A DNA stretch of 64,000 nt, taken from the IMG/VR virus record IMGVR_UViG_3300020187_000015, positions 32,001-96,000 of that record. One strand, given 5' to 3'. The position numbers were made by a program, and so were the translations under genes. The notes under the pieces are model-generated. The model saw only the letters and a list, made by a program, of their open reading frames with translations, was not told the origin of the DNA and did no database searches. The DNA is from a virus. Of this stretch, positions 7,557 through 52,626 are shown in pieces. Positions within the stretch are counted from its first letter, which is position 1; each line of letters begins with the position of its first letter.

Positions 7557-8134
7557 TACCAAACAATAGCACTTAATTCTGCGAAACTAGTGGCGTTAGC
7601 GATTGCTTCGTTAAGTTCTTTTTCACGAGAAAATGCTGCCGACTTTCTTTGAATACCTTCCGAAATTGCTGTTTGAAACTGAGCCTTTGAAATTGTATTG
7701 TACGAACCATCGGCGTTCTTATAATCTGGGAAAGAGCCGCCGTCTGGCAGGATTTCGATAATTGTTTTTGTGTCGATGATGGTTTCTAGGTCGGCCTTAA
7801 ATTGAAAACCATCACTAGTCGTGAGAATAGAGTTGTATTCCGCATCTCTAGCTCTTTTAATCTCTGCAAACTTTCTAGATTTAAACATATCGGGATATTC
7901 AATAAATCTTTCTTCTCGTCGCTCCAGTCGTTTGATCTCCATCTTTTCTTGAAAAGTAACAACGTTATTGTTAATCAGGAAAAGTGGTTCGTCCGAAGAC
8001 TCAAAAGTTGCAGCCTTCGCATTCGAGATTTGAACGACTTCTTCAGAATTGGTATTATAAGAGCCATCTTCGTATGCATCTTCTTGCACTTCGATGATTC
8101 GTCTTGTTTCGATGTTAATTAGGGCGTTTTTCAT
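7556..8134 (-). CDS. DUF4376-like protein (tail-fibre assembly associated)
   Basis: C-terminal KFAEIKRARDAE...FQFKAD...YKNADGS...AIANATSFAELSAIVW pattern typical of DUF4376. Confidence 0.65.
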   Translation of the reverse strand: MKNALINIETRRIIEVQEDAYEDGSYNTNSEEVVQISNAKAATFESSDEPLFLINNNVVTFQEKMEIKRLERREERFIEYPDMFKSRKFAEIKRARDAEYNSILTTSDGFQFKADLETIIDTKTIIEILPDGGSFPDYKNADGSYNTISKAQFQTAISEGIQRKSAAFSREKELNEAIANATSFAELSAIVW

Positions 8135-8931
8135 AATTCGTTGATCCAGTTAAATTTTTGGTTAAGTTGTTCTGAGAGTTGGCGGCCAAGTGTTTCGTGC
8201 CAATCTTTTTTTAGTGGTTTTACTTCTTGGCGAATAACATGGTCTCCATATGGGAAACCTACATCATTTTCTTTGGTGTATTGTTCTACGTTGGAAGTGT
8301 TGTGAACGAAAGGCTCTTCTCCAAGAAACTCCCATACATTATTCATTACACTTTGTGGGTCTTCTGTTAAGTCTTCAGCATGAATAAACATTAATTTATC
8401 ACCAAATCTTTCGGCAGCTTCATGTAATCTCTCGATTGCAATACCAATTGGAGGGCTTTGTAGCCAACCTTGAGCGCGTTTATCGATAGTTGTCCAGCTT
8501 TGTGGGTTTTGTTGCTCCACTCCGTTAAAAACTTCTGGGTGCTGCTGGCGTTTCTTTTCCATGCTGGAAAGAATGCCGCGTATATCGCGGACTGGCACAA
8601 GAACCTTTGCGTCTGGCCACACCTTAAAAAGTTGATCTAGGTGACCAATCCAAGAGCGGCACTTGTCTACAACTACAGGGCGGTCTGTGATACTATTAAA
8701 TGCGTTCTCACATCCAGCCTTAACGTAATCCAAATACATAGGCTCAAGAACTTTTTCCATATCCACTGCCTTTGCCTCTTCAGTCTGAAAGACTTGGCGA
8801 GCTATGTAGCCAATTTCGTGCAAGGCACTTGTTGGTGTAGCGTGGACCCTTGGGTTCTGCGCTAGAAGATTGCAGAGCAGCGTGGAGCAAGCTCTTGGAA
8901 GACCAGATACGAAGTGTAATTTTTTACTCAT
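8131..8931 (-). CDS. sulfotransferase family protein
   Basis: 5'-PSB loop FVSGLPRACSTLL, VVDKCRSW, 3'-PB motif VRDIRGILSS, IHAEDLTEDP. Confidence 0.85.
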   Translation of the reverse strand: MSKKLHFVSGLPRACSTLLCNLLAQNPRVHATPTSALHEIGYIARQVFQTEEAKAVDMEKVLEPMYLDYVKAGCENAFNSITDRPVVVDKCRSWIGHLDQLFKVWPDAKVLVPVRDIRGILSSMEKKRQQHPEVFNGVEQQNPQSWTTIDKRAQGWLQSPPIGIAIERLHEAAERFGDKLMFIHAEDLTEDPQSVMNNVWEFLGEEPFVHNTSNVEQYTKENDVGFPYGDHVIRQEVKPLKKDWHETLGRQLSEQLNQKFNWINEL

Positions 8932-8937
8932 ATTATT

Positions 8938-8965
8938 ATGGTGTATCTAATCCTTTAAAAGTCAA
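8938..8965 (-). promoter_or_regulatory. putative sigma70-type promoter, near-leaderless
   Basis: TTGACT-N16-CACCAT-N6-ATG. Confidence 0.4.
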
Positions 8966-9982: not shown

Positions 9983-9994
9983 GATTTTTAAAGA

Positions 9995-14078: not shown

Positions 14079-14285
14079 TTATACTACAGCAAGACTCTTG
14101 ATTGAGTTTCGATGGACTTTAATTTCTCCACGCTTTCCAGAGAAGCGATCAAAGATTACGAATGTTTCTCCGATAGATTTAACTTTACCCATAAAGCATT
14201 CGGAAACTTTAGAATTTTGTAGACTTACTCTCATAAATTTACCGCGGGACTTTGTTACTTTTGATTTAATAGTACTTGTATTCAT
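14079..14285 (-). CDS. small basic beta-barrel (SH3/Sm-like) protein
   Basis: 68 aa, beta-rich pattern GKFMRVSL...GKVKSIGETFVIFD...IKVHRNSIKSL. Confidence 0.5.
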   Translation of the reverse strand: MNTSTIKSKVTKSRGKFMRVSLQNSKVSECFMGKVKSIGETFVIFDRFSGKRGEIKVHRNSIKSLAVV

Positions 14286-15397
14286 TATATTTTTATTAGT
14301 TCTAGTATTTCGTCACAGAATTTTGCATCTGTGAACTGAGATGGTAGCTTTTTGCCGCCTTCATTAATTTTCCCATCAAGGACATTTTTAACGGCAGAAT
14401 CTAATGAAGTAGACATATTTTCTATATCTAAATCATAAATATTTCCGCAATTAAATGGAGACCCCTGTTGAAAGAAAAGATTATCGATTGCTGAAATTTT
14501 ACCATTAGGAGCCACTTTAATAGAATTACTATCAGTTGCCCACTCTTTAATTCCAGAATTAAAATTAACTACACATTGCTTGCCGAGTCCAGCCATATGG
14601 AAAGAAGGTAGAGACCAAGATTCTCCACCGCTTCCATCAACAACAATGTCTGCAATATTATATGCTTGATTCAACTCCGTTAACTTTCTAAAGTAGGGCA
14701 TAAAGATCATGTTATGGGGAACATCTCCATCACAAGCCTCGACTACTTTCATTTTGTTTATCTCCATAGATTTATTCGGGTCTTGATGGAAAAAGGGATT
14801 GAATATATGAAGATGTATCTTGAATCTCTTATCATTCCCAAATTTATTTTTTAACAAATTAATGATACTAGCAGTATGCTTTCTTTTTTCAAATTTGCCA
14901 GCTAAAGCAATTACAATTTCATTATTTTCATACTTTTTAACTTCAGTCTCTTTAAAAGCAAGGGAGTTGTAACCCAAGTTAATTGTTTTGTGGTTATCAA
15001 CTCCATATTCTTTGCAGACCTCTTCCGTGAAAGAACAAGGTGATGCAACTTTGTCATAGGAGTTCAAAATATTTTTTTCAGTCGCAGTAAGTTGATCTAG
15101 CTCATGGAAAAAATAAAGGAAGGGGTTTTTACTGATTGAATCTTGAGAGCCATTGATGTGCCAAATTCTCAAGGACGGTTCAGTTCTCTTGAAGTCTTTC
15201 AATGATTTTTGAGTACACAATTGCAACCAAGCCATGAACTGTTCAGGAATGATATCTTCATAAGAAGATAGATCTATTCCAGCTATTGGAAAAATATTAG
15301 GCTCCAGCTTTCTAGAGAATAGCTCATATAGAAGATTGGTAGATACTTGACCTAAGCTAGTGCCATTAATGGGGACCTGCAAACTAAAATTACTCAT
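14285..15397 (-). CDS. glycosyltransferase, GT4-like (GT-B)
   Basis: AGKFEKRKH, YNIADIVV..SGGESWSLPSFH (variant of the EGFGLP motif). Confidence 0.8.
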   Translation of the reverse strand: MSNFSLQVPINGTSLGQVSTNLLYELFSRKLEPNIFPIAGIDLSSYEDIIPEQFMAWLQLCTQKSLKDFKRTEPSLRIWHINGSQDSISKNPFLYFFHELDQLTATEKNILNSYDKVASPCSFTEEVCKEYGVDNHKTINLGYNSLAFKETEVKKYENNEIVIALAGKFEKRKHTASIINLLKNKFGNDKRFKIHLHIFNPFFHQDPNKSMEINKMKVVEACDGDVPHNMIFMPYFRKLTELNQAYNIADIVVDGSGGESWSLPSFHMAGLGKQCVVNFNSGIKEWATDSNSIKVAPNGKISAIDNLFFQQGSPFNCGNIYDLDIENMSTSLDSAVKNVLDGKINEGGKKLPSQFTDAKFCDEILELIKI

Positions 15398-16429: not shown

Positions 16430-17272
16430 ATGGAAGATTTTACAGATAAGATAACGATTGGGATTCTTGACTTTTTTCAAGAGAAAGAGTCAAAGGAACT
16501 GCTAATGTCCTTAGCTGAAAATCTTTTGATAGATGTTAACATTCTTTTTATCGACAACGGAACTCCAAAAAGTTATAGTAAACAGTTCCTGAATGATGGA
16601 CTAATTGATGAGTTAATTATAAACGATAGTAATCTTGGCTGTGGCCCAGCTACCGTTCAAATGTATGATTATTGCAAAACTCCATATTTGATATACGTCC
16701 AAAGCGATCAAAGGCTAAATCAAAAGATTGACGCAGATTCAATGAATGGGATGATTAGAGCTTTGGACGAATACCACTGCATTGACTTGGCTGGAAATCA
16801 AGGGAATGGAAAATTCTCAGAAAGAGCTAATATGATGAAAACGGAATTCTATAAAAGAATTCCAAAACCTACTTTAGGTGGACCAGGAATCACAAATGAT
16901 CAAAAGTATGTAGAGGAATGGGTTCAAGATTTTTTTGCAGACAATAATTGCGTTATAGCTCATGTTAGGCCAACAGTATTTTCTGACGAAGGTTATTACT
17001 CAGTAAGAGAATTGTCACAAGAAGACCCTTGCATTTTAAAACATTCTTGCTGGACCAAGGAGATGTGGATTCTTACTGACCCCCCGAAGAATAGGCATGA
17101 GGTTTATCCACCTCTTAACGAAGAGGAGTGGGATAGATTGATAAAAGGAGATTTTCCTAGGTGGAAAAACAACGAAAGGGGCTATGTACCAGAGGCTTGG
17201 AGAGACAACATTATTACCAATGAAATCGTGGAATCAAAAATTAGAGAAGACATAAAAAATGACACCGATTAA
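16430..17272 (+). CDS. glycosyltransferase, GT-A/GT2-like
   Basis: ILFIDNGT, NLGCG, LIYVQSDQ (DxD-equivalent). Confidence 0.7.
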   Translation: MEDFTDKITIGILDFFQEKESKELLMSLAENLLIDVNILFIDNGTPKSYSKQFLNDGLIDELIINDSNLGCGPATVQMYDYCKTPYLIYVQSDQRLNQKIDADSMNGMIRALDEYHCIDLAGNQGNGKFSERANMMKTEFYKRIPKPTLGGPGITNDQKYVEEWVQDFFADNNCVIAHVRPTVFSDEGYYSVRELSQEDPCILKHSCWTKEMWILTDPPKNRHEVYPPLNEEEWDRLIKGDFPRWKNNERGYVPEAWRDNIITNEIVESKIREDIKNDTD

Positions 17273-18128
17273 AAATAAAATTTGGCTATGCGGACTTACT
17301 TATGGCCCAGCTATTGAAGCCGTAAAAAATAACATTATCCCTATTGCTAAGCATTTCGATGGATTGAATATTGTTCTCCATAAGAGTGGACCAATCCTAA
17401 CTGAACAGGAAAGCCAGTTATTTAGCATACTAAATGAAAATAGGGGACAAGGTAAAATTCATATTTTCGATTGGATTAGAAGATATGATTTTTCTAGGAA
17501 TAGATATTTGTTTGACCCATTAATGAATTCTGGAGACTTCTTTGTAGTTTTAGACTCGTTGGAAAATATGACAGAAAATTTCTGTACAACAGATCTTCCG
17601 AAGATTAGAAAATCAATGGTAGACAATGACCTTGAGGGAGTCTTTCTTCATGGCAAGGGTTTTATTTTTAGAAAAAACGAATGGATGAAATATGAAAACG
17701 GAACTCATGAATGCATCAGACCCATGAATAGAGCTGCTGAGCTTACGCAGATTGCGGGCTATGAAGACAGTTCAAAATACTTCACAAACACTAGGCCAAA
17801 CAAGAGAGAAAAACTTCATTTTGTAGAACACTTTTTTAGATATTATCTAATCGATAACACTATGCAGTGCTATTTAGGCACTGAGAAAGATGAAGGACTT
17901 ACTAGAATTAGGTTAGAGAATAGACATGATTTTAGAAATCATCTGTTAAGCAAAGGAGTTGAATTCAATTACGAATCAGTCCTTGAGTTCTTTGAGCAGG
18001 ACATAGATCAAGATACTAAAGATCTTATCAATAAAGAAAAAATTCTTAATGACTTCTATAGAAATAAAATACTAGGTGAAGTAGACATTTTAGATAATCA
18101 CGATTACGAAAACATAAAGCCTATATGA
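17259..18128 (+). CDS. glycosyltransferase, GT-A-like
   Basis: WIRRYDFSRN, VVLDSLE, YENGTHE pattern of SpsA/GT2-like enzymes. Confidence 0.6.
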   Translation: MTPIKNKIWLCGLTYGPAIEAVKNNIIPIAKHFDGLNIVLHKSGPILTEQESQLFSILNENRGQGKIHIFDWIRRYDFSRNRYLFDPLMNSGDFFVVLDSLENMTENFCTTDLPKIRKSMVDNDLEGVFLHGKGFIFRKNEWMKYENGTHECIRPMNRAAELTQIAGYEDSSKYFTNTRPNKREKLHFVEHFFRYYLIDNTMQCYLGTEKDEGLTRIRLENRHDFRNHLLSKGVEFNYESVLEFFEQDIDQDTKDLINKEKILNDFYRNKILGEVDILDNHDYENIKPI

Positions 18129-18907
18129 TATCTCTAGCAACTAGTGCATTTAACATAGAGTCTAATGACTTTGACATTCATTCTGCAATTAAAAACTGGG
18201 AATTGTACGTAGATGAGATTGTTATAAGTACTATACCCTCTAGAGACAACTCTCTGCAAATCCTAAAGGAACTCGAAAGTTCTAAACCTATAAAGATAAT
18301 TGAGGAAGATTTTTCACTGGAAGATCCTGAGTTTGATGGTAAGCTTAAAAATAGCTCGCATCAAAACTCTTCTAACGAAATTGTCGTTCAGTGTGATTTA
18401 GATGAAAGAATGGGCGGAAAGCCAGAAGCCTGGAAAAGCTTTGCAGAAACTCTTTTATCAAATGAGAGTGTAAAATCCTTGTTCATTCCAGTTATTGATC
18501 TTTATGGATCTTATTATGAATATTCCTCTATCAATAAAAAATGGTATATATGCAAGAAAGAGGGTACTAAGAGGGGAGTAGTCTCTTTTGCTAGAAAGCA
18601 AGATGGTAAAATTGATATAGAAAAATCAGATACTTGCGAACTTCTCGATGAAGATGATAATTTAGTTCCATATATTGACATATGCCATCATTATCAAATA
18701 GATCCTCTAAGATATTGCCAGCTACATAATCCCTTCATTTGGCACTTAGGTTATATAGATATGGATAGAAGATCGAAAATTAATTCTTGGTGGAAACCCC
18801 ATTGGGAAAACCGTAAAGGAGAAAGTATTGAAGAGGTTGGAATATCTAAAAAAGATTTAGAATCAAGAGAAACTTTTAAACATAATATTGAAATAGATTT
18901 CTTATAA
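18125..18907 (+). CDS. glycosyltransferase, GT2-like
   Basis: VDEIVI...SRDNS, QCDLDE DxD motif, IWHLGY. Confidence 0.7.
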   Translation: MISLATSAFNIESNDFDIHSAIKNWELYVDEIVISTIPSRDNSLQILKELESSKPIKIIEEDFSLEDPEFDGKLKNSSHQNSSNEIVVQCDLDERMGGKPEAWKSFAETLLSNESVKSLFIPVIDLYGSYYEYSSINKKWYICKKEGTKRGVVSFARKQDGKIDIEKSDTCELLDEDDNLVPYIDICHHYQIDPLRYCQLHNPFIWHLGYIDMDRRSKINSWWKPHWENRKGESIEEVGISKKDLESRETFKHNIEIDFL

Positions 18908-18912
18908 GAATC

Positions 18913-19545
18913 ATGAATAAAAATAATAAAATAAAACAAATTCAAGAAGAGTATGATAAACTAGGGCTAAATTCTTGTTCCGTACCAGAAGAGGATGGCT
19001 GGATATTTGAATCTGCTATGAATATAACGGAATCAAATAATATTCTAGAAATTGGATTTTATAAGGGTGGTAGTGCATTTATTATGCTTTCTTTAGATGA
19101 AGGTGTGAATTTAACTTCAGTTGACCCTATAGATGGATTGGCTTCCGAAGCATATCAAGCTGCTGAACAAAAGCAGTATGATGAAAAACTCAAAGCAACA
19201 GAAAAAGTTAAAGAAAAGTTTGATGATCGATTTACTTTCATTAGAAAGTATTCTCAAGATGTCAGACCAGATTTAGAAGGGCAGTCTTTTGATATGATAT
19301 TTATTGACGGTGATCATTGGGAAAGTGGCATAAGAAATGACTTTCAATTAATGCTAGATTTGAAAATTCCATATGCTCTAGTAGATGATTGGATACAGCC
19401 AAATAATTGCCACAAATCAGTTCCAACAGTATGGGCAGAAAGTTTTCAAGATAAATTGAAAATGAAAACAGTTTTTTTTAGACATGCTATTTCTTGCAAT
19501 GGTGGTCCGATACCAGTTGTATTGCTGGAAAACTTGACCCTTTAG
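18913..19545 (+). CDS. class I SAM-dependent methyltransferase (Methyltransf_24-like)
   Basis: ILEIGFYKGGS, SVDP, FDMIFIDGDH, VDD. Confidence 0.85.
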   Translation: MNKNNKIKQIQEEYDKLGLNSCSVPEEDGWIFESAMNITESNNILEIGFYKGGSAFIMLSLDEGVNLTSVDPIDGLASEAYQAAEQKQYDEKLKATEKVKEKFDDRFTFIRKYSQDVRPDLEGQSFDMIFIDGDHWESGIRNDFQLMLDLKIPYALVDDWIQPNNCHKSVPTVWAESFQDKLKMKTVFFRHAISCNGGPIPVVLLENLTL

Positions 19546-19550
19546 AAAGC

Positions 19551-20306: not shown

Positions 20307-20356
20307 TTTACTTTGATGAAGGCAGATCAGATTATATTTTAGATTGGTGGCTATGA
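20303..20356 (+). CDS. 17-aa micro-ORF coupling two glycosyltransferase genes
   Basis: MIYFDEGRSDYILDWWL*; ATGA overlaps with both the upstream stop and the downstream start. Confidence 0.4.
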   Translation: MIYFDEGRSDYILDWWL

Positions 20357-35428: not shown

Positions 35429-35463
35429 ATTGTTAAATTAAAGTTTAAATCTATAATTTGAAA

Positions 35464-43049: not shown

Positions 43050-46000
43050 TTATCCTATAAAAGTTAAAGATCCTGTGTTATCGTATGATGCGTCTAAAGT
43101 ACCGATGCCACTATATTTAATTATATTTAAATCTACAGAATCAGCAAAGTATTTTTTCTTTACCATTTGGATATTTAAGTCATCATCTCCAGTAAGAACA
43201 ACATAACCCGAATAGCCAGTTAGATTAATAGAAGGTATATTAAAGAAGCCAGTGCATTTAGCAAATCCAGTATTGTTAATACCAGTAAGAATCTCATACT
43301 CTCCAGTAAAGGTCTTTATATAGTTTGGAATAGGGAAGCTATAACTCAAAGATTCTAAGTCAGCAGGATTAACAAAATCAGTATAAAATCCAGTTCCAAT
43401 AAAAGAGCTATTTAAGTTTCCAGTGAATGGAGTTATAGGAACATTTCCAGAAGATAGTAAAAATACCTCCTGTCCTGTTGGTACTACTGAATTTATAAAC
43501 TGCGGCAGTCCAGTTTGAATTCCAGAGAAATTAAACTCTCCGCTTCCTGGGTATACTATTCCAGTAATGTTTCCAGATATTACTCCAATTCCAATCTTGA
43601 CTCCCGTTTTTTGTAAGTTTCTTTGAGTGAAGTTTAATATTCCAGTGTAATCAAACGATCCAGTTAATATCCCAGTTGCAAAGTTGAATCCCTTTCTAAC
43701 TCCCGAATATATAAAATTATCTGCATAAGAATCCTCAAACCCTCCTACTGGTTGGTCAAAGGTTATTGTCTGCAAATTCACTCCACTAAATGGAAGCATA
43801 TTGAGAATGGCTTGGTCGAATTCGCCAGACTGCTGTCCAGCAAGGATCGTAATAGGGTCTATTCCAGTTCCACTTGCTATGGTTGGCACATAGCCAGTGA
43901 CTGTAGCATCTAGGTCTAGAATATTGCCACTGAAGTCTAAATTATCTATATACCATTTGGCAGGCCCAGTTTGGATTCCCGTATAACCTATAGCATATAA
44001 AGAACCAGTACTGTCATCCCCAGTAGCAAATGATATTCCAGTAGGAACGCCCGAAAATATATAGTTATCCGCATAAAGGTCATTATCCCCACCCAATGGG
44101 GGGCTATTGGATAATGCCCTTACTCCAGTTCCAGAAAAAGGAAACATATTTAAAAGGGTCTGGGCTAATTCGCCAGACTTCTCTCCAGCAAGTACCGTAA
44201 TTTGGTCTATTCCAGTTCCAAGTCCAGTAGAGGGTATTATTCCGCTAGAAGCAAAGGGATCTATATAAATATCTCCTTCATTTAATGAACTTATAAAGTA
44301 TTTGGAAGTAGTATTTTCAATACCAGTAAAAGTTATAGAATAAATATTTCCACTAACTCCAGAATTGAAAGGAACGTATCCAGTAGCAAAGGTAGTTGGA
44401 ATTGCAGTAGTTATTTTTCCAGACATTATACCTGAATATGGAAGATTTGATCCTTGGGTAGCAACCTCTATACCAGTTTCGATTAAAGTATAAAGTCCTC
44501 CACTTTGCCTGGTTGCATATTTTGCATCTTTACTCCAAGGACCATAAGCAGTACTTGTGGTAGTGCCAAGACCAAAACCTAATGCACCTCCGATTGGGTA
44601 AGTTAATCCAGGATCAGAAGTAAATCCAATTCTGCCACTTCCAAAATATACATTATACCCAATTTTATCACAATATGCTTTCATGATACCGCTAATCTCT
44701 TCCATACTACTTTGATAATTAGATATTCCTAATCGCTCTATTAGTTCATAATTACCCAATGAATAACCGTCGATTTTTTCGTTGGTGGAGTCTACTCTTT
44801 TTCTTAAAAAGCCAACCACATTATTCATAAAAATTCCAGTAGGAATCTCAAAATTATTTATACTTTTCTCGCCATTAAAATTTCCAGTCATTTGAGTGAA
44901 TATTTCGTTGGGTATGTTACTATTAGGAAAAAGACTTTCATCTTGAAGGGCATATAAAAATCCAGCATTTTCACCAGTTACTTCAATAGTACCGCCAACT
45001 CCAGACATTCCAGTACCCTCAAAGCTGACATTTTCAGCATATCCAGTCATATTAAACCCAGTTTGAAATACATTCAAGCCACTTGTAACGCTAATGGTGT
45101 TTGGTAAAGCTATGGCGATCCTATTAGTTGTAGACCCAGTTGGATATTTGGTATCGGCAGATAGTAGATATCCACTAGCATCAGTCGGTGAAGAGTAATT
45201 TGTTAAAAATCTGCGAAATCCCTGCCCAGAGCTATCTAAGAACGTATTAAACTGGCGAGGGCCGAACTCAGGTGGATTCTTGCTGTTGTCGGTGTCCTGA
45301 AAATAGAAGTAATTAAACCCACTAGGTTCCAAATCTTCGGTGTCTGAAGTTATTAGAAAGTAGACATTAAACACACCATATTGGTCTGCGTTTATATTTC
45401 TATCGTTAAATCTCTCATTGAAATCAGTAGTTGAATTAACGCTTATGGTTTCTCTCTCTTTATAGATCATATCTGCAAGGTTATTCCCAGTATAAACAGT
45501 AATTCTGTAGCTTCTACTTTTTCGGCTTTTGTAAACTCCAGTTCCAGATAAAAAGTACTTAGGACTTACGCCAACTGTCATGTCTGACGGATCGAGATCG
45601 AAAAAACCACTCAGCAATCTTCTATTGAGCCATACTGGGTTATGAATATATGAACCCCTGTCTGCATCGTTAGTAGAAAATGATAATATAGGGGCCTTTT
45701 CGTTGGTGTGATCAGAATATAGAAGTATTCCACTGTTGCCACTAAAAATAAAGGGATTAAATCTTGTATAAACGCTGGAAACGGGGATTCCGTAGGAATT
45801 TCCATTCAAAGAAATGCTATCGTCAATAAGCGCTCCAGTGTTTGTTAGATACCGACCAGTTACCCCACTTTCCCCATTGAAAATTATATCTTTTACTGGT
45901 TCAGAAATTGAGCCTATGAGGCCAAGTCCAGTATATCCTATACCAGTAATTTCTTGAGGATGCACATATGCGCCAGTTCCTGAATAATGAAACTGACCAG

Positions 46001-48287
46001 TAAAATCAACATATCCAGAAGAAATGTCTTGTGCTTGAACAGTAAAATTCTTGCTGAAAGTGTTGCCCAATCGAATAGATCTGAACAAATAATCATAATT
46101 TCCTAGCATTGACAAATCAGTAGCAACATATCTGTCGTCCGTAACTTCATGAACAGTTTCATTAGTCATTCCACTCAAAAGTTTACCTTTTGCAATGTAA
46201 TTATAAGTAAAATCTATTCCAGTAAATCCACTTGCTAATGCAGAAGCTTGCCCAGTAATTATTCCGCTACCCGTCAAAACTCCAGTAGTAAATTTAGATT
46301 CGATTCCAGTTATTCCAGTTCCACTAAATATAAATCCAGTTAAATTTGGATCTTCTGGCAATAACCCAGTTGCTAGTCCAGTAAGCTCTGTACTAACATA
46401 CAAACTGTAATCGGGTATTGGAAACTTCATATCAATTCTATTGATTCCAGTAACATTAAAAGCCCCAGTTCCAGTCCCTATGAATGCCCCTGGAGTTCCA
46501 GAAACCTTAAATCCGCTAATAATATTCGTTCCAATTAAACCAATTTGGTCGGCAGGAATTCTCATTTCTCCATCAAAAATTCCACTAGAAAACCCGCTAA
46601 ATATATTAGAATAATAAACATTAGAAGTTTGATTAGATCCAGCGCCAGTTACTCCAGTACCAAATGAGAGCAATCCAGTAAGATTTGGATCTTCTGGCAA
46701 TAAGCCAGTTGCTAGTCCAGTTAAAATTCTGTCAGATAGATCTATCGTCCAGCCATTATTAACAAAACCTCCTTGGGAATCTCTAGTGTCCATCGGAAAG
46801 GTTCCAATGAGGTCAAAAACCCCAGTTCCAGTCCCTATGAATGCCCCTGGAGTTCCAGAAACCTTAGATCCACTAATGGTAGTGGTTATATCTAAGCCAG
46901 CCTGATCTCCTGGGTAATACGCAATCCCATCAAATGCGCCAGTTGCAAATCCGCTAAATCTACTGGCATATTCCTTATTTCTTGTTTGATTTGATGTAGC
47001 GGTAAACGACTGAACGTCGAAGGAAAAGCAAAGAGAGTCATTTTTCGATGTTACTATCGGTTCTCCGTCAGTATTATTTCCACTAAGTATTATTCCAGTC
47101 GTAAAGCTTGGAAATAGAGACTGTTGACCAGTAAATCTAATAGCGCCAGTTTCAGTGAAGTTATATCCTCCACTAACATTCCTTATGAATCCAACATCTA
47201 ATCCAGTTACAATCCCACTAGAGGACGTTAAAAATGGATACGACATTTCTCCAGTAGCAAATACTGTTTCTCCAGTATAAATCTGAGATGGTATATTTCC
47301 AGTATAATTAATTTCAAGACCAGTGCTATAGCCAGAGAGTGTTAAATACCCGCCGCCCAAGCTGGACTCAATCATTCCAGTTAAATTGCCAGTGCCTATT
47401 ATATTTCTAGAAATATCAAATCCTGGAATTGACCCAGTTATTTTACCAGTTTTAATATCATAGTCAGCGTAACCACCATAGCCACTAATATTACCAAATG
47501 TAAAATGAAGTCCGAATGGATCATCTGTAAGATTTGGACCGTATCTTTCAGAAAATAAAACATTATAATTAAATATTCCAGTAGAATCCAAAAAGTCTGA
47601 CCCCAATAAACTCAACAGGTACTCGTATTCCCTCGTAAAACTAATTAAGCCGCTTTTTGTAAAAGTTCCAAAGTCTGAAACAAAAGATATTGGTATCAGT
47701 ACTCCAGTTCCAGTAGTGACATTTGAAATTTGATTAATTAAAAAGTCTCTACTAGATTGACCCTCTATTATTCCAGTATTTTGTCCAGTATTGAAATTGA
47801 AAAAGTTAGATAATTCTTCAAATTTTCCAGAAAATATATTAAATGATATTCCCTCACTAGAATTATTGCTAACCTTTAAACTTCCAGTTAAATTACTATT
47901 TTCGAATATTCCACTAATACTAATTACTGGCTCTACTCCCATTAAACTAAGTTCCGAAACTACTCCATTTTCAGTAAAGTTATTTATGTAGCCAGTGCCA
48001 TTTTCATGGTAAGAATTTATAAGTACATTATTAACGAAATAATTATTATAATTCCCAATTTTATTCCCAGAAACGGAGAAAGTATCTTGATTCTTGTAAG
48101 AGTAGAAAAAGTTATTATCAGAATCATAAAGCTTTCCGCTTTCGCCACTAAAAACAATCCTATCTTCAATAGAGCCATCTCCAGTATTTATAAATGAAAA
48201 CCCAAATGAAATATGATCGTCCCTTTGAGGCCGTATAAAGGCTTGATAAGAAAAGTTTCCTGACTGGGTTCCAATTGAGAATGACAT
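43050..48287 (-). CDS. very large Thr-Gly/Ser-Gly-rich virion protein (tail fibre/baseplate-like)
   Basis: 1745 aa, dense TG/SG dipeptides, internal duplications, located in tail operon. Confidence 0.75.
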   Translation of the reverse strand: MSFSIGTQSGNFSYQAFIRPQRDDHISFGFSFINTGDGSIEDRIVFSGESGKLYDSDNNFFYSYKNQDTFSVSGNKIGNYNNYFVNNVLINSYHENGTGYINNFTENGVVSELSLMGVEPVISISGIFENSNLTGSLKVSNNSSEGISFNIFSGKFEELSNFFNFNTGQNTGIIEGQSSRDFLINQISNVTTGTGVLIPISFVSDFGTFTKSGLISFTREYEYLLSLLGSDFLDSTGIFNYNVLFSERYGPNLTDDPFGLHFTFGNISGYGGYADYDIKTGKITGSIPGFDISRNIIGTGNLTGMIESSLGGGYLTLSGYSTGLEINYTGNIPSQIYTGETVFATGEMSYPFLTSSSGIVTGLDVGFIRNVSGGYNFTETGAIRFTGQQSLFPSFTTGIILSGNNTDGEPIVTSKNDSLCFSFDVQSFTATSNQTRNKEYASRFSGFATGAFDGIAYYPGDQAGLDITTTISGSKVSGTPGAFIGTGTGVFDLIGTFPMDTRDSQGGFVNNGWTIDLSDRILTGLATGLLPEDPNLTGLLSFGTGVTGAGSNQTSNVYYSNIFSGFSSGIFDGEMRIPADQIGLIGTNIISGFKVSGTPGAFIGTGTGAFNVTGINRIDMKFPIPDYSLYVSTELTGLATGLLPEDPNLTGFIFSGTGITGIESKFTTGVLTGSGIITGQASALASGFTGIDFTYNYIAKGKLLSGMTNETVHEVTDDRYVATDLSMLGNYDYLFRSIRLGNTFSKNFTVQAQDISSGYVDFTGQFHYSGTGAYVHPQEITGIGYTGLGLIGSISEPVKDIIFNGESGVTGRYLTNTGALIDDSISLNGNSYGIPVSSVYTRFNPFIFSGNSGILLYSDHTNEKAPILSFSTNDADRGSYIHNPVWLNRRLLSGFFDLDPSDMTVGVSPKYFLSGTGVYKSRKSRSYRITVYTGNNLADMIYKERETISVNSTTDFNERFNDRNINADQYGVFNVYFLITSDTEDLEPSGFNYFYFQDTDNSKNPPEFGPRQFNTFLDSSGQGFRRFLTNYSSPTDASGYLLSADTKYPTGSTTNRIAIALPNTISVTSGLNVFQTGFNMTGYAENVSFEGTGMSGVGGTIEVTGENAGFLYALQDESLFPNSNIPNEIFTQMTGNFNGEKSINNFEIPTGIFMNNVVGFLRKRVDSTNEKIDGYSLGNYELIERLGISNYQSSMEEISGIMKAYCDKIGYNVYFGSGRIGFTSDPGLTYPIGGALGFGLGTTTSTAYGPWSKDAKYATRQSGGLYTLIETGIEVATQGSNLPYSGIMSGKITTAIPTTFATGYVPFNSGVSGNIYSITFTGIENTTSKYFISSLNEGDIYIDPFASSGIIPSTGLGTGIDQITVLAGEKSGELAQTLLNMFPFSGTGVRALSNSPPLGGDNDLYADNYIFSGVPTGISFATGDDSTGSLYAIGYTGIQTGPAKWYIDNLDFSGNILDLDATVTGYVPTIASGTGIDPITILAGQQSGEFDQAILNMLPFSGVNLQTITFDQPVGGFEDSYADNFIYSGVRKGFNFATGILTGSFDYTGILNFTQRNLQKTGVKIGIGVISGNITGIVYPGSGEFNFSGIQTGLPQFINSVVPTGQEVFLLSSGNVPITPFTGNLNSSFIGTGFYTDFVNPADLESLSYSFPIPNYIKTFTGEYEILTGINNTGFAKCTGFFNIPSINLTGYSGYVVLTGDDDLNIQMVKKKYFADSVDLNIIKYSGIGTLDASYDNTGSLTFIG

Positions 48288-48293: not shown

Positions 48294-50480
48294 TTATTTT
48301 TTGATGAATTTTAAAAGCTTTTCCCGATTCGAAGGTAGCACCTCTATATTTCGGGTATTTAAAGAACTTTTTACTGAATACACATTCTTCTTTGGAGGTA
48401 ATGAATTTGGATTGCCGACAATAACTGCACCCCTTGGCTGAGTTATTAATTCTTTACTAGGTAAAGTAAAGTTTCTATTGCCAATCGTATAAGTAGTTTT
48501 TACGCCATTACTACTAATACTTATATCTACGTTTTGCAGCCCCTTTTCTATAGAAGCGGTATAATTTGGTATATCTATATTATTAATTGTAAAAGTTTTT
48601 TGGACTTTTTTCTGCGTTATAGTATATCCCAAGTTTGGGTAATTAGTTAATGATCCTCCTATTCTAGGACTATTACCAAGCCTTATATTATTACCGTCTA
48701 CTTGAATTATATCCGATAAGGCCGCTACTTGATTTGGTGATGTATCCAAATCGACGTCAGTCCTAATTGTATTAGAATTATAACTTGGCTGAGTAAAAGC
48801 TATTGACTCTAAAGCAGCTGTAAAATTCTCTTCTCCTCCTTGATCTCCTCCTCCTCCTCCATCATCAATGCTGCCCCTTATATCGATTCTTTGACCCTCC
48901 ACTCTCAGAGTCTGCTTTAACTCGTATTTAAAGTTTATTCTTTCAAATATATTAGTGAAGTTTATATTCTTAAGAACTGCTGCAAACTTCAAATTTGGAT
49001 TATATCCGTCACTTCTAGCCTTGTATCTAGCGGAACTACTTACTTCTAAAAATATTACAGACTTATTTAAATTTAATGATTTAACACTATCATAAACGTC
49101 GAAAGACAAATCCCACGGAATGGTTGCATATATTCTATGATTACTTTCAGCTGCACTCTTCCTATCTGGATTGACATATTCAGTTATATCCTCTCTGTCA
49201 TACTTTAAATCCGCACCAATAGCCCAATTGTATCTAAAATATTGGGCTTCAGCTAGATTATTCTCGTAGGTCAAGAATTGCGCAAATTTTTGCTTTACAG
49301 TTTCCACTGTGACTGTATCGGAAATATCTGACTCAATATATGAGATTATGTTATAATCCTCATATAAATCATCCTTTGGATCAAAAGCCTTTTTTTGCTT
49401 AGGGTTCAAAGTATAGACCTGTTCATATCCAAATACACTTGAATATGAATTTGGATCTTTCTTGCACAAGTACAAAGCAGCGTAAGCAAAAAAAGACTCT
49501 CCTACCGCAGCAGCTTTGCCTAGATTTATAGCAAATCCTGGATTAGCCCAATACTGATCTGGCCTGTCAGTAGGCCTATAAAGATATATCTGTGTATCTG
49601 ATTTCTCTTCAAATTCTCCATACTTAGTTTCTCCGCCTCCACCAGTGCTTGTTGTATTTCCGCCTCCTCCACCAGCATCTATATTTTTACCAGGCTTTCC
49701 GTAATAAACGGAGTGACCTTTTGATATAGTATCTCTCAATGAGAATGAGTTTTTTTCAGATATGAAGTTAACTTCGTTAGGGAAAACTGGAGAAATACTT
49801 TCAGTAAGATCTATAAACTGTATCTTACCAGACTCATTAAAAAAAAAGGTAAATCCATATATTGAACCCCAAGAACTTAATACGTTTCTTAAAGTACCAG
49901 TAGTTTCCTTCAATAGGCTATTATCGTGTCTGGCTAAAGCAACATCTATATTTTCAATTTTCCCTCGAATTTTTCCCAACAGCTCCTCAAGGTTATATAA
50001 ATAATCTGGGAGCTGCCTGACATCCTGAGAGGAGGTTGATCTAGTTAGTGGAATCGAATCTCCACCTAATTCCGACGATTCTTCTAATGTAAAGTATCCT
50101 CTGCCAACTAGTATTAAAGACTCGTCCGTTGCTGTTGCGTTAAAATTTCTCCCCAATAAAGCAACAAACTTTTTGTCTAAAAGAAGAATCGACTTGTCGT
50201 TATAAGTGACGGTCAAAATTCTTCCACTAACACTATCGTCTATGGAGTACTCTATCGCAACCATATTTAGTTCTCTTGATCCTAGATTTATCTTATCACT
50301 ATCAAAAACATTCAAACTATCTTCGCTTATAGTGTAAGCTCCATTCTCGCTCGAAATAGTTAATGTTAACTGCGTGACTTGCGTCCCAAAGCCAATAGAA
50401 TAAGATGCACTAATTATTAGTCCACCGTACGCTGAAGTACTCCCATTCAAAGTAACCTTATCTGTTTTTCTTATCGCCAT
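48294..50480 (-). CDS. putative tail tip/baseplate hub protein
   Basis: 728 aa, beta-rich; GTLRNVLSSWGS.YGFTFF...GKIQFIDL hub-like pattern; GTGTAA late motif upstream. Confidence 0.55.
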   Translation of the reverse strand: MAIRKTDKVTLNGSTSAYGGLIISASYSIGFGTQVTQLTLTISSENGAYTISEDSLNVFDSDKINLGSRELNMVAIEYSIDDSVSGRILTVTYNDKSILLLDKKFVALLGRNFNATATDESLILVGRGYFTLEESSELGGDSIPLTRSTSSQDVRQLPDYLYNLEELLGKIRGKIENIDVALARHDNSLLKETTGTLRNVLSSWGSIYGFTFFFNESGKIQFIDLTESISPVFPNEVNFISEKNSFSLRDTISKGHSVYYGKPGKNIDAGGGGGNTTSTGGGGETKYGEFEEKSDTQIYLYRPTDRPDQYWANPGFAINLGKAAAVGESFFAYAALYLCKKDPNSYSSVFGYEQVYTLNPKQKKAFDPKDDLYEDYNIISYIESDISDTVTVETVKQKFAQFLTYENNLAEAQYFRYNWAIGADLKYDREDITEYVNPDRKSAAESNHRIYATIPWDLSFDVYDSVKSLNLNKSVIFLEVSSSARYKARSDGYNPNLKFAAVLKNINFTNIFERINFKYELKQTLRVEGQRIDIRGSIDDGGGGGDQGGEENFTAALESIAFTQPSYNSNTIRTDVDLDTSPNQVAALSDIIQVDGNNIRLGNSPRIGGSLTNYPNLGYTITQKKVQKTFTINNIDIPNYTASIEKGLQNVDISISSNGVKTTYTIGNRNFTLPSKELITQPRGAVIVGNPNSLPPKKNVYSVKSSLNTRNIEVLPSNREKLLKFIKK

Positions 50481-50492
50481 TCCTTTATTTTA

Positions 50493-50498
50493 TTACAC
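50493..50498 (-). promoter_or_regulatory. putative late promoter motif
   Basis: GTGTAA-N12-ATG. Confidence 0.6.
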
Positions 50499-50529
50499 TT
50501 AATTATAGTCCATTTTAAACTTAATCAAA

Positions 50530-52626
50530 CTAAAGATCGAAAAAGCCACTGGCTCCAGTTAGATAAGATCTATATACTGATCCAGTTGATAGCTCGCTCT
50601 GATAATTTCTATTAACAAATAGAGATTTTACTCCGCTTGGAATAAGCTGCTTTTTATTAGATATTAGATCTGAAGATTCACTAGTCTCTAAATATAGATC
50701 ACGGCGCAGCCTCAGCCTTCCAAAATAATTGGTAGAGGAGCCTCTAAAGAATTTCCCCGAAGATGGTATGATATTAGACTGGTGTTGACCACTCTGAACT
50801 CTAAAGCCAATAGCTAAAATTTCTTTAGTTGAGTCAGATGTTTTTATTGCGGTGAACGAGTTGTTAATTGCGTCTCCAGTATAATCCAATCCAGACGCTA
50901 ACTTATACCCTTTTTTGAAAAACAAGTTATCGTGTACGCTTATATTGTTGTTGCCACTAAAGACACTTTTTACTGCAAAGTCATTAGCATCGTAAAATAC
51001 TTTTGAGTCAGTATTATTACCGCTTAATATTACCTTACCTGGTTCTATTGAACCAGATTTATAAAAATTTTCTAGACCAGCTGATGTTATGGTAGAGTTT
51101 GAAAATCTCAAAAGACCATTAGAAAAGACTCTAAATTCGGACCCATCATACTCTTGATTAATTGAAAATCCAGTCCCATCTAAGCTTGCAAGAGATGTCT
51201 TGTTTAAGAAATTGAAATTTCTAAATTCATTAGAATAATCGTCTTCTTTTTCATATAAAGCTAAAGAGTTAAAGCTATTTATTCCAGTCTCTTCTTGACC
51301 AAACGATTGATCAAAATACTCGCCAAGATAAATAGTTTCACTCATTCCATACTCAGAAAGCTGTCTTCTGTCGCCACTCATAATATTCTTAAGTCCAGAA
51401 ATGTCATTGTTGCCAGTATTGAAAATAGTAGTAGCTCTTAACCCACTAGACAAGAACCCAGTGATGTTAACGTTTTGATATATATCCGTTCCATTGATAA
51501 CTTCATCGGTTCCAGAGAATTGACGAATCAACCCAATTACGCCAGTTGAATCTAATGTAACAACCTTTCTATATATTGGAACTTCTTCGTTTCCTATGCA
51601 ATACTGCGGTAAGTTTTGTAAGAACTCTATCTTTTCCTCTCCAGGTGCTATAACTCCCGTTTCAACAACATATTGATAAATGTCAGAGTAACCAGTAGTA
51701 TATCCAGTGCCAGTCAAAATGCTGTTTGTAGAAAGTATGCCAGTTACTCCAGTTAAATTATATTCATAGCCACTAACTCCTCCAGTAATTCCAGACTCTA
51801 TCAAGAAAGGAATCCCACTCTTGGTGTCCGACCAAAAGCCCGAAGCCAGTATGTTTGCATCTACAGTTGAAATGTTTTGATTTAAGTATACAAAATCGTC
51901 CATAAAGCCAGAATAGCTTTTTTGATTTTGCCCACTACCAATTAAAAATTTATTACAAGGAAGAATTTGGTCGGATATAACGCTTTTTATTTCACTCTCA
52001 AAAGATTTCGTACTATTATTATAAGCTAAAAAGTAAATTGAGTCATCGAATTTTCTTAATCCTATTAAGTTTTTATCTGATAGCTGCAACAAGCTAGTTT
52101 GTATATCGTATCTTTGGTTTTGATTATCAAAATATTCAAAATACATTTTATTTGCAGAATTTATCCCAAAAGAATATCCACTTTTTATAACGTTGTCGTC
52201 AAAACAAGAAAATAAAACTCCATCTCCAGTATAACGCTTATCTTGAGATAAGAGTACGGTAAAATCTCTAGAGAATAAATCTTTTTGATTATTTATTTCT
52301 AAATATCCGTAATTAAAATTTCCAGAATTTCCATTTCCAGTAAAGCTATCAACGTTTCCTATTATAGAAGCAGAGTTTGAGCTTAAAATATTTATATCTT
52401 GCCCAATAAAAAAAGAAGCAAAGTTTACAGAATTGTATCCTGAAACATCGACGTCCTCTAATATTATAAAAGAAGAGTCTTGCGTAATTAAGGGGCTTCC
52501 TGACTGTGTGACTAGCTGAGTATAAAATTCATCACTAAAATTATTAAAGTCATAGTATACTGGCATGTTGCCTGTATCTAGTTTTAATATTCCAGAATAA
52601 ATGTAGTTTATGCCCCTTAAGCCCAT
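50530..52626 (-). CDS. LamG/concanavalin-A-like domain virion protein, TG/SG-rich
   Basis: YYDFN, FLIGSG...YSGFMDDF LamG-like motif; N-terminal LVTQSGSPLITQDSSFIILE motif. Confidence 0.6.
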   Translation of the reverse strand: MGLRGINYIYSGILKLDTGNMPVYYDFNNFSDEFYTQLVTQSGSPLITQDSSFIILEDVDVSGYNSVNFASFFIGQDINILSSNSASIIGNVDSFTGNGNSGNFNYGYLEINNQKDLFSRDFTVLLSQDKRYTGDGVLFSCFDDNVIKSGYSFGINSANKMYFEYFDNQNQRYDIQTSLLQLSDKNLIGLRKFDDSIYFLAYNNSTKSFESEIKSVISDQILPCNKFLIGSGQNQKSYSGFMDDFVYLNQNISTVDANILASGFWSDTKSGIPFLIESGITGGVSGYEYNLTGVTGILSTNSILTGTGYTTGYSDIYQYVVETGVIAPGEEKIEFLQNLPQYCIGNEEVPIYRKVVTLDSTGVIGLIRQFSGTDEVINGTDIYQNVNITGFLSSGLRATTIFNTGNNDISGLKNIMSGDRRQLSEYGMSETIYLGEYFDQSFGQEETGINSFNSLALYEKEDDYSNEFRNFNFLNKTSLASLDGTGFSINQEYDGSEFRVFSNGLLRFSNSTITSAGLENFYKSGSIEPGKVILSGNNTDSKVFYDANDFAVKSVFSGNNNISVHDNLFFKKGYKLASGLDYTGDAINNSFTAIKTSDSTKEILAIGFRVQSGQHQSNIIPSSGKFFRGSSTNYFGRLRLRRDLYLETSESSDLISNKKQLIPSGVKSLFVNRNYQSELSTGSVYRSYLTGASGFFDL

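What the first reader, a model, noticed from the sequence alone, without database searches (positions are those of the whole stretch)
8131..52626. Candidate phage 'proteoglycan-like' virion glycosylation system: glycan-building enzymes plus [ST]G-rich structural proteins
Seen: the phage encodes five GT-A-like enzymes (16430-21108), two GT4 (14285, 35464), a split GT9, two methyltransferases interleaved with the GTs, a sulfotransferase (8131), Gmd and both HldE-like halves. Seen: structural proteins, especially 43050-48287 and 50530-52626 and more weakly 56214, 1992 and the tail-tube end, are saturated with Thr-Gly/Ser-Gly dipeptides, usually after a hydrophobic residue (ITG, FSG, LTG, YTG); the replication enzymes are not. 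Known: Ser-Gly is the glycosaminoglycan attachment site in proteoglycans, AAH/TibC heptosyltransferases O-heptosylate Ser in repeat proteins, and virion glycosylation occurs in chloroviruses and some mycobacteriophages. Inference: [ST]G is an O-glycosylation sequon and the phage builds a methylated/sulfated heptose- or deoxyhexose-containing coat on its tail. Alternatives are DNA hypermodification or host-surface remodelling.
Basis: partly seen in the sequence, partly recalled or inferred. Interest (0 to 1): 0.9.

Follow-up and report, generated by a model that had tools for sequence, protein, structure and literature searches.

The report
Ser/Thr-Gly-rich phage tail proteins
Two outer tail proteins of an uncultured marine phage place a serine or threonine before about 60% of their glycines; this conserved pattern may mark sugar-attachment sites for the phage's many sugar enzymes, but nothing here links the two.

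Summary
The window is part of a 105.8-kb contig of an uncultured marine phage; relatives come from TARA and GOS samples and none is cultured.

The core observation holds, but more narrowly than stated. [ST]G is strongly enriched in only two tail proteins:
- 43050-48287: 141 observed against 47 expected, z 16.6.
- 50530-52626: 41 against 13, z 9.2.

It is not enriched in 56214, 1992 or the tail-tube end (z 1.5 or less). The bias runs one way (G[ST] is not enriched) and is strictly in frame. The sites are the best-conserved positions in homologues. T4, T5, lambda, P-SSP7 and P-SS2 fibres lack the bias.

Most of the glycan toolkit is real: sulfotransferase, Gmd, both HldE-like halves, two GT4-like genes, a GT9 C-half and one methyltransferase. 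Only two of the five 'GT-A' ORFs have any support.

The link between motif and enzymes is unproven. The split GT4-GT9 pair is conserved in 43 of 43 related loci and often lies beside [ST]G-rich ORFs. However, one complete relative, G004, keeps all three core GTs and has no [ST]G-rich protein. The heptose, deoxyhexose and sulfotransferase genes vary independently of the motif.

My best reading (0.4) is an O-linked modification site. A structural or stability motif is the main rival.

This scan has noted the same signature in at least 8 other aquatic phage genomes.

The parts
43050..48287 (-). P0001, a 1745-aa outer tail (fibre-like) protein with 141 [ST]G dipeptides. Its N-terminal ~260 aa are predicted to be a galectin/ConA-like beta-sandwich.
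   Evidence: Shuffle statistics. Motif in frame only. Site conservation in homologues. Mosaic divergence, 64% identity against 94-99% in the flanking genes. AF2 model and Foldseek. Lies downstream of the tape measure gene.
50530..52626 (-). P0002, a 698-aa tail protein with 41 [ST]G dipeptides. It is preceded by the late-type GTGTAA motif.
   Evidence: homologues down to 34% identity keep z 8-11. (upstream motif). AF2 model poor, pLDDT 37.
57833..63601 (-). Tape measure protein. It anchors the tail module and is not [ST]G-enriched (z 0.9).
   Evidence: PF10145 E 1.5e-18.
48294..50480 (-). 728-aa tail-module protein lying between the two [ST]G-rich genes. It is itself depleted in [ST]G (z -2.2).
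35458..37383 (+). P0020: GT4-like glycosyltransferase with a CxxC...CxxC insert, a DUF4214-like segment and a C-terminal ~110 aa that look like the N-lobe of a GT9 enzyme.
   Evidence: phrog_2170 E 4.8e-16. Weak PF00534 and PF13946. Sequence inspected. The N-lobe is not confirmed by Pfam or PDB searches. A homologue is present in 43 of 43 related loci.
37383..38549 (+). P0021: GT9 C-lobe (donor-binding half) plus an unknown ~215-aa C-terminal domain. Its start overlaps the stop of P0020 (TAATG).
   Evidence: PF01075 E 1.1e-10. Nearest PDB entry is WaaF, 1PSW. NCBIfam LPS heptosyltransferase models, all below cut-off. 62 full-length homologues of about 390 aa. 44 IMG/VR loci.
14285..15397 (-). 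Second GT4-like glycosyltransferase. It is a core gene of the lineage, and in G002 and G005 it lies next to [ST]G-rich ORFs.
   Evidence: phrog_2170 E 2e-10. Homologues in G002-G005. Neighbourhoods.
33452..34249 (+). PfkB-family sugar kinase, HldE domain I-like.
   Evidence: PF00294. TIGR02198 E 3.5e-43, 148 bits, below the 345-bit cut-off.
34215..34646 (+). Nucleotidyltransferase, HldE domain II-like.
   Evidence: PF01467. TIGR02199 E 1.5e-25, 90 bits, below the 181-bit cut-off.
25326..26390 (+). GDP-mannose 4,6-dehydratase (Gmd).
   Evidence: PF16363 E 8e-105.
8131..8931 (-). Sulfotransferase with its own TTGAC-type upstream box. It lies between the LRR genes and a DUF4376 tail-fibre-like gene.
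   Evidence: PF13469 E 1.8e-16. phrog_27463. Upstream sequence. 91% identical copy in G003.
16430..21108 (+). Block of six ORFs. 16430-17272 and 20344-21108 are GT2-like (leads only). 18913-19545 is a SAM methyltransferase. 17259, 18125 and 19494 have no detectable family.

Best explanation
P0001 and P0002 are outer tail proteins (fibre or baseplate periphery) of an uncultured marine long-tailed phage. I read their phi-[ST]-G dipeptides as acceptor sites for a covalent O-linked modification of the Ser/Thr hydroxyl, with glycosylation the leading candidate.

Proposed mechanism: soluble phage glycosyltransferases write the modification in the host cytoplasm, before or during tail assembly. The early-expressed sugar-nucleotide genes would supply the donors.

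Shown: the motif statistics, its direction, its conservation, its restriction to a few unrelated tail proteins, and the presence and conservation of the GT genes.

Inferred: that the sites are modified at all, that the modification is a glycan, and which enzyme writes it.

The accessory heptose, deoxyhexose and sulfotransferase genes are probably not tied to the motif.
For: 1. The excess is extreme and runs one way. P0001 has [ST]G z 16.4 against G[ST] z -1.1. [ND]G and GG are depleted. Only 14% of Gly follow S/T in the rest of the proteome.
2. The motif is strictly in frame, so it is a protein-level feature.
3. Sites are conserved. In the 44%-identical homologue P0007, 88% of the S/T stay S/T and 92% of the Gly stay Gly, against 46% and 60% at other S/T and Gly positions. 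S and T interchange.
4. All distant relatives found by profile search keep z 7-16.
5. Unrelated proteins share the bias: P0001, P0002, and ORFs in G002, G003 and G005. The modelled part of P0001 is a galectin-like sandwich, a fold that does not generally need the motif.
6. An orthologue pair differs. The G002 631-aa protein has 16 sites (z 5.4). Its 42%-identical G004 orthologue keeps 4 of them.
7. Fibres of T4, T5, lambda, P-SSP7 and P-SS2 reach z 3.3 at most.
8. The lineage keeps the GT4::GT9N + GT9C pair in 43 of 43 loci. About 20 of 44 loci have an ORF with z of 6 or more within 10 kb. In G002 and G005 the [ST]G-rich ORFs lie next to the other core GT4.
Against: - No chemistry exists.
- G004, a complete 211-kb genome, keeps all three core GTs yet has no ORF with z above 2.7.
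- No gene family is shared by all four [ST]G-positive genomes and absent from G004.
- The GT9 piece matches LPS heptosyltransferases, not protein heptosyltransferases.
- Gly is conserved even more than S/T, and 6 of 15 sites in the confident part of the model lie within strands, as a conformational motif would.
- One site per 12 residues is denser than in most folded glycoproteins.
- The GT genes sit in the TTGACA-type early/replication block, while the tail genes carry the late motif.
Confidence: 0.4

Rival explanations
1. [ST]G is a structural, assembly or stability motif with no covalent modification, for example a beta-bulge or turn stitch in which the hydroxyl caps the backbone and Gly takes a positive phi angle. 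On this reading the sugar genes act elsewhere, most plausibly remodelling host LPS or other surface glycans during infection.
For: - Gly after S/T is the most conserved class, 92-95%.
- phi-[ST]-G-phi fits a bulge or tight turn. 6 of 15 sites in the confident model region are mid-strand and 9 are in loops.
- N and D are the commonest replacements of the S/T.
- G004 shows that the core GTs exist without the motif.
- The GT9 half is nearest WaaF/RfaF, and the HldE-like halves make an LPS-core precursor.
- The glycan genes lie in the early block.
Against: - Unrelated folds in the same virion share the bias, while neighbouring tail proteins are depleted: 48294 has z -2.2.
- Classical fibres lack it.
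- An orthologue lost 12 of 16 sites at 42% identity.
- NG and DG, the usual tight-turn pairs, are depleted only in P0001 and not in the other virion proteins, so a general avoidance of deamidation is not the driver.
Confidence: 0.33
2. [ST]G marks a different trans-acting process, such as a non-glycan modification (for example phosphorylation or acylation) or recognition by an assembly chaperone or protease.
For: The same evidence for a trans-dependent selected site as in the best explanation. No GT could be tied to the motif. A subtilase-domain protein lies at 3-1985.
Against: No kinase, acyltransferase or chaperone candidate correlates with the motif either. The lineage's conspicuous enzymatic investment is in glycosyltransferases.
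Confidence: 0.1
3. The glycosyltransferases hypermodify the phage DNA, and the [ST]G bias is unrelated.
For: The GT, Gmd and HldE-like genes are interleaved with ribonucleotide reductase, DnaB, primase and a nuclease in the early block. Virus GTs that glycosylate DNA are known (Pyle et al. 2024, as cited in PMC12619734).
Against: - No thymidylate-synthase-like hydroxymethylase on the contig, although the contig is only 62% complete.
- The genome avoids CCGG completely, 0 against ~68 expected, and several 6-bp palindromes. That is the strategy of a phage whose bases are not broadly protected.
Confidence: 0.07

Closest known systems
Virion glycosylation of mycobacteriophages (Che8, Corndog, Myrna; Freeman et al. 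2023, as described in PMC12619734)
   Same: Phage-encoded glycosyltransferases are proposed to decorate structural proteins of the virion in the host cytoplasm.
   Different: In those phages the glycans sit at the C-termini of capsid and tail-tube subunits and were shown chemically. Here the candidate sites are about 140 dipeptides spread along fibre-like tail proteins, the capsid and tube are not enriched, and nothing is shown chemically.
Bacterial autotransporter heptosyltransferases (TibC/AAH) acting on TibA and AIDA-I (PMC4358343)
   Same: A GT9-related enzyme using ADP-heptose hyper-glycosylates many Ser residues of a beta-rich surface adhesin in the cytoplasm. This phage has a GT9-like enzyme and both HldE-like halves.
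   Different: - The phage GT9 is split over two ORFs.
- It matches LPS heptosyltransferase models only.
- It has no Cys4 iron finger in the GT9 lobe.
- Thr outnumbers Ser at the sites.
- Relatives with [ST]G-rich proteins (G002) lack the HldE-like genes.
LPS core heptosyltransferases WaaC/WaaF/WaaQ with HldE (ADP-heptose pathway)
   Same: PF01075 C-lobe, nearest PDB entry 1PSW (WaaF). rfaE_dom_I and rfaE_dom_II are the best models for the kinase and the nucleotidyltransferase.
   Different: All equivalog scores are far below cut-off. The N-lobe is fused behind a GT4 enzyme on another polypeptide, and an extra 215-aa domain follows the C-lobe.
Proteoglycan Ser-Gly glycosaminoglycan attachment sites
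   Same: A hydroxy amino acid followed by Gly.
   Different: Those sites are Ser only, with acidic flanks, and are written by a eukaryotic xylosyltransferase. Here Thr exceeds Ser, the flanks are hydrophobic, and no such enzyme is present.
Short structural motifs of beta-helical adhesins (for example GGA[ILV]/FxxN of chlamydial Pmp proteins; from my own knowledge)
   Same: A very short motif recurs many times in a beta-rich surface protein without being a modification site.
   Different: Those motifs belong to one fold family. Here unrelated tail proteins share the dipeptide and an orthologue has lost it.

Membership tests
Bacterial autotransporter heptosyltransferases (BAHT: TibC/AAH) | Sequence membership: best match to BAHT rather than to LPS heptosyltransferase models | tested here: not met
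   NCBIfam lists only LPS heptosyltransferase II, RfaF, RfaQ, I and III, all below cut-off. The PDB search finds WaaF 1PSW and 3TOV, not TibC.
Bacterial autotransporter heptosyltransferases (BAHT: TibC/AAH) | Cys4 iron-finger insertion in the catalytic C-lobe (PMC4358343) | tested here: not met
   No CxxC pairs in the GT9 part of P0021. A CxxC...CxxC insert exists, but in the GT4 part of P0020.
Bacterial autotransporter heptosyltransferases (BAHT: TibC/AAH) | Single polypeptide with an N-terminal beta-barrel that forms dodecamers | not testable with these tools
   The GT9-like domain is split over two ORFs. Oligomeric state is unknown.
Bacterial autotransporter heptosyltransferases (BAHT: TibC/AAH) | Transfers heptose to Ser of a protein acceptor | not testable with these tools
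   Needs biochemistry.
GT9 (Pfam PF01075, heptosyltransferase family) | Pfam domain match above the gathering score | tested here: met
   P0021 residues 64-156 match profile positions 150-238, 41.7 bits against a cut-off of 22. C-lobe only.
GT9 (Pfam PF01075, heptosyltransferase family) | N-terminal acceptor lobe | tested here: inconclusive
   A GDT-type motif is visible at the end of P0020. There was no PDB hit and only a 0.19 E-value match to a Kdo-transferase N domain. The two ORFs co-occur in 43 of 43 loci.
HldE (ADP-heptose synthesis, both domains) | Equivalog-level match to rfaE_dom_I and rfaE_dom_II | tested here: not met
   These are the best models by a wide margin, but at 148 against 345 bits and 90 against 181 bits. 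The genes are HldE-like, and orthology is not shown.
GDP-mannose 4,6-dehydratase | Full-length PF16363 match | tested here: met
   E 8.3e-105, profile positions 1-332 of 332. A partner epimerase/reductase lies outside the window at G000 27669-28445.
Mycobacteriophage-type virion glycosylation | Glycans on C-termini of capsid and tail-tube subunits | tested here: not met
   The putative capsid/tube region is not [ST]G-enriched. Candidate sites are spread along two fibre-like proteins.
Mycobacteriophage-type virion glycosylation | Chemically demonstrated glycan on virion proteins | not testable with these tools
   No cultured representative: nothing in INPHARED matches the putative terminase, the putative capsid protein, P0001 or P0021.
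Proteoglycan Ser-Gly attachment | Ser-Gly with acidic flanks | tested here: not met
   84 TG against 57 SG in P0001. The -1 and +2 positions are mostly hydrophobic.

The most novel reading that the evidence does not exclude
Uncultured aquatic tailed phages use phi-[ST]-G as a dense O-glycosylation code on their outermost tail proteins. The code would be written by conserved phage glycosyltransferases (here the split GT4::GT9 pair and a second GT4), giving the host-recognition apparatus a phage-made glycan coat. G004-like lineages would have lost the code.
Probability: 0.3. Interest if true: 0.85.

Novelty: new variant of a known kind. Interest (0 to 1): 0.6.

Why it matters
If the [ST]G sites are modified, this would be a sequence-readable mark of virion glycosylation in abundant uncultured ocean and lake phages. 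Tail fibres are where host range, adsorption and resistance to proteases or grazing are decided. The mark could then be mapped across viromes without culturing anything.

If the sites are not modified, the motif is still an unexplained, strongly selected design rule. It covers about 60% of all glycines in a family of very large, fast-evolving receptor-binding proteins.

Either way, the split GT4::GT9 enzyme pair, conserved in 43 of 43 loci, is a new and testable architecture.

Tried and rejected
- DNA-level motif. Rejected: ACTGGA and its kin occur only in frame 0 of the two genes. The ACT-before-GGN preference is a sharper form of a genome-wide codon-pair bias caused by total CCGG avoidance.
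- Internal repeats as the source. A few duplicated modules are visible by eye, but [ST]G spacing is broad (2-41 residues) and density is even along the protein.
- N-x-S/T sequon. Not enriched, z 1.7 and 0.05.
- Extended [ST]-G-x-[ST] or [ST]-G-S motifs reported elsewhere by this scan. Not seen here.
- Virion-wide deamidation avoidance. Rejected: [ND]G is at expectation in the other late proteins.
- A motif-specific gene present in all [ST]G-positive genomes and absent from G004. The only candidate, the 12979-14034 modules, fell apart: DUF5824 is missing in G002 and the second module gave no BLAST hit in G003.
- Structure of P0002. AF2 failed, pLDDT 37. P0001 beyond residue 265 was also poor.
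- Pairwise hhalign among the five GT-A-like ORFs found nothing.
- Relatives in cultured phages: none.
- Scans that found nothing or could not run: genome contigs with P0026 found no relative, and alignment A4 gave no usable pattern. The viral-contig scans with distant P0001-like proteins also found nothing.
The long contigs that carry the distant homologues P0007, P0030 and P0043 could therefore not be read.


Full report
WHAT THE WINDOW IS
The window is bases 32001-96000 of a single 105,788-bp virus contig. CheckV rates the contig about 62% complete. GC is about 36% and no tRNA genes were found. Neither megablast nor tblastn finds a relative among 50,697 deposited phage genomes; I tried the putative terminase, the putative capsid protein, P0001 and P0021. 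Relatives come from TARA Oceans and GOS assemblies and from IMG/VR, so this is an uncultured marine phage.

The minus-strand block from 63601 down to 40364 starts with a 1922-aa tape measure protein (PF10145) and continues with large ORFs that have no family hits. Late-type GTGTAA boxes sit 14-18 nt before several of these genes. I take this block to be the distal tail and fibre module; that is inferred from position.

THE [ST]G OBSERVATION
I tested 56 ORFs against 1000 composition-preserving shuffles each. Only two stand out:
- 43050-48287 (P0001): 141 [ST]G against 47.3 expected, z 16.6, 8.1 per 100 aa.
- 50530-52626 (P0002): 41 against 12.9, z 9.2.

The 728-aa protein between the two genes is depleted, z -2.2. 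Nothing outside the window exceeds z 3.9.

In P0001, TG and SG are the two most enriched dipeptides in an unbiased list. 61% of all glycines follow S or T, and 48% of all Thr precede Gly. GG, NG and DG are depleted. The bias runs one way, with G[ST] at z -1.1. In the rest of the proteome 14% of glycines follow S/T. The residue before the dipeptide is hydrophobic far more often than chance (70 against 16.3, z 14). The residue after Gly is also mostly hydrophobic, 75 of 141.

The signal is at the protein level, not the DNA level. ACTGGA and related words occur only in frame 0 of these genes. The strong use of ACT before GGN (79 of 84) is an exaggeration of a genome-wide codon-pair bias: ACT is 72% before Gly and 42% elsewhere, and NNC-GGN is absent. 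The absence of NNC-GGN follows from total avoidance of CCGG, 0 sites against about 68 expected.

CONSERVATION
- Six homologues of P0001 (44-93% identity) and eleven of P0002 (34-96%) keep the enrichment, z 13-17 and 8-11.
- In the 44%-identical P0007, the S/T of [ST]G stays S/T at 88% of sites and the Gly stays at 92%. Other S/T are kept at 46%, other Gly at 60% and all other residues at 39%. S and T interchange. D and N are the commonest other replacements, at a few percent.
- A profile of the N-terminal 700 aa finds 62 proteins among 1.84 billion representatives. Every long one keeps z 7-16.
- P0001 is also the mosaic, fast-evolving gene of the module. In L007 it is 64% identical while the flanking genes are 94-99% identical. 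That is typical of a receptor-binding protein.

IS IT JUST WHAT FIBRES LOOK LIKE?
No. The following controls reach at most z 3.3:
- T4 gp34 and gp37
- T5 pb1, pb2, pb3 and pb5
- lambda J and stf
- the P-SSP7 fibre
- the P-SS2 fibres

P0001 and P0002 share no significant similarity with each other.

AF2 gave a usable model only for P0001 residues 1-260. This region is a galectin/ConA/SPRY-type beta-sandwich by Foldseek. Of its 15 [ST]G, nine lie in loops and six lie inside strands. The P0002 model was too poor to use. Surface exposure therefore could not be settled.

THE GLYCAN GENES
Supported:
- sulfotransferase 8131-8931
- Gmd 25326-26390
- a PfkB kinase and a nucleotidyltransferase whose best models are the two HldE domains, although both fall below the curated cut-offs
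- two GT4-like genes
- a GT9 C-lobe
- one methyltransferase

These rest. A Gmd-partner epimerase/reductase lies outside the window, beside the DNA polymerase III alpha gene.

Of the five 'GT-A-like' ORFs, only 16430 and 20344 have any support, and that is at the level of a lead. ORFs 17259, 18125 and 19494, and the second 'methyltransferase' 21230, match nothing at the thresholds used. 8966-12532 are BspA-type LRR proteins.

The GT9 domain appears to be split. P0021 starts with the donor-binding lobe. The last ~110 aa of P0020 carry an N-lobe-like motif, which I could see but could not confirm by search. This arrangement is not a sequencing error:
- P0021 has 62 full-length homologues of about 390 aa, down to 29% identity.
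- 44 IMG/VR loci encode one.
- A P0020 homologue sits beside it in 43 of 43 loci.

DO MOTIF AND ENZYMES GO TOGETHER?
Partly. In about 20 of the 44 loci an ORF with [ST]G z of 6 or more lies within 10 kb of the GT pair. I read four whole relatives:

| Genome | Size and completeness | Highest [ST]G z values |
|---|---|---|
| G003 | 142 kb, 77% complete, close relative | 11.4, 7.1, 5.1 |
| G002 | 205 kb, complete | 7.6, 5.1 |
| G005 | 184 kb, complete | 7.8, 6.2 |
| G004 | 211 kb, complete, GC 0.43 | none above 2.7 |

All four keep the GT4::GT9 pair and the 14285-type GT4. In G002 and G005 the [ST]G-rich ORFs lie directly beside that GT4. The G004 637-aa protein is a full-length, 42%-identical orthologue of the [ST]G-rich G002 631-aa protein but keeps only 4 of its 16 sites.

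Two things follow:
- That fold does not need the dipeptides, so whatever selects them is absent in G004.
- The three core GTs are not sufficient for the motif.

No gene family is present in all four positive genomes and absent from G004 at BLAST sensitivity. The one candidate dissolved on inspection. The HldE-like, Gmd, sulfotransferase and GT-A-like genes are found in G003, partly in G005 and not in G002. The 'heptose or deoxyhexose, methylated and sulfated' part of the hypothesis is therefore not coupled to the motif.

All these genomes belong to one lineage, so the co-occurrence counts are not independent events.

ALTERNATIVES
- DNA hypermodification is weakened. No hydroxymethylase-like gene was found, although the contig is incomplete. 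The phage also relies on palindrome avoidance: CCGG, CCATGG, GAGCTC and GTCGAC are all absent.
- Host-surface remodelling remains a good explanation for the sugar genes themselves. The LPS-type GT9 and the HldE-like genes fit it, as do the early-type promoters.
- A purely structural role for [ST]G fits the very high conservation of Gly and the mid-strand sites. It does not fit the convergence in unrelated proteins or the G004 orthologue.

COMPARISON WITH KNOWN SYSTEMS
The closest functional analogues are two:
- Mycobacteriophage virion glycosylation. There the glycans sit on capsid and tube C-termini (PMC12619734).
- TibC/AAH heptosylation of autotransporters (PMC4358343).

The phage enzymes fail the testable membership features of the TibC/AAH family, and the site pattern differs from both systems. 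Full-text searches found no description of an [ST]G bias in phage tail proteins.

This scan's own notes report the same signature in at least eight other uncultured aquatic phage genomes. Those notes are unchecked leads, not evidence. They do mean that this is not the first sighting within the scan.

VERDICT
- Observation: partly confirmed. It is strong, but confined to two proteins, and the GT-A count is overstated.
- Interpretation: partly supported. A selected, trans-dependent, hydroxyl-specific site on outer tail proteins in a GT-rich lineage is compatible with a glycosylation sequon. The specific proteoglycan-like heptose/sulfate model and the enzyme assignment are not supported.

Noticed in passing
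whole contig (window 1-64000 and G000): Complete avoidance of CCGG: 0 sites in 105.8 kb against about 68 expected. CCATGG, GAGCTC and GTCGAC are also absent and GGATCC occurs once. This points to strong restriction pressure, and it explains the missing NNC-GGN codon pairs.
   Followed up: partly
35458-38549: The GT9-like enzyme is split over two overlapping ORFs (TAATG). The N-lobe is fused behind a GT4 domain with a CxxC...CxxC insert and a DUF4214-like segment; the C-lobe carries an unknown 215-aa domain. The pair is conserved in 43 of 43 related IMG/VR loci, down to about 30% identity.
   Followed up: partly
8966-12532: Three tandem BspA-type LRR_5 genes in a stretch of higher GC (0.45 against about 0.36). 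They are S/T-rich yet depleted in [ST]G (z -1.5 to -2.9). Homologues occur in L017-L020 and G003.
   Followed up: no
12979-14034: 351-aa protein made of two modules (DUF5824 and phrog_7595). These modules are 67-79% identical in genomes that otherwise share only 25-40% identity, and they appear there in different architectures, which suggests a mobile or shuffled domain.
   Followed up: partly
G000 27669-28445 (outside the window, L002:9670-10446): An NAD-dependent epimerase/dehydratase, a likely partner of Gmd for a 6-deoxyhexose. It sits beside the phage DNA polymerase III alpha and an epsilon-like exonuclease.
   Followed up: no
3-1985 (full gene G000 30224-33985): 1253-aa protein with a subtilase (Peptidase_S8) domain, at the end of the minus-strand block.
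   Followed up: no
7556-8134: DUF4376 protein with weak PHROG matches to tail fibre proteins, directly downstream of the sulfotransferase.
   Followed up: no
upstream regions across the window: There are two promoter styles. GTGTAA lies 14-18 nt before the starts of tail genes and the first LRR gene. TTGACA/TTGACT boxes precede the replication and glycan block and the sulfotransferase.
   Followed up: partly
L006:151-5419: The GOS copy of the P0001 homologue is broken into two frames near base 1000. This is probably an assembly or sequencing error.
   Followed up: no
G004 109068-120500; G002 105540-115796; L036, L041, L042, L046: In relatives, the GT pair is followed on the opposite strand by giant ORFs of 2,770-3,810 aa that are not [ST]G-enriched.
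   Followed up: no
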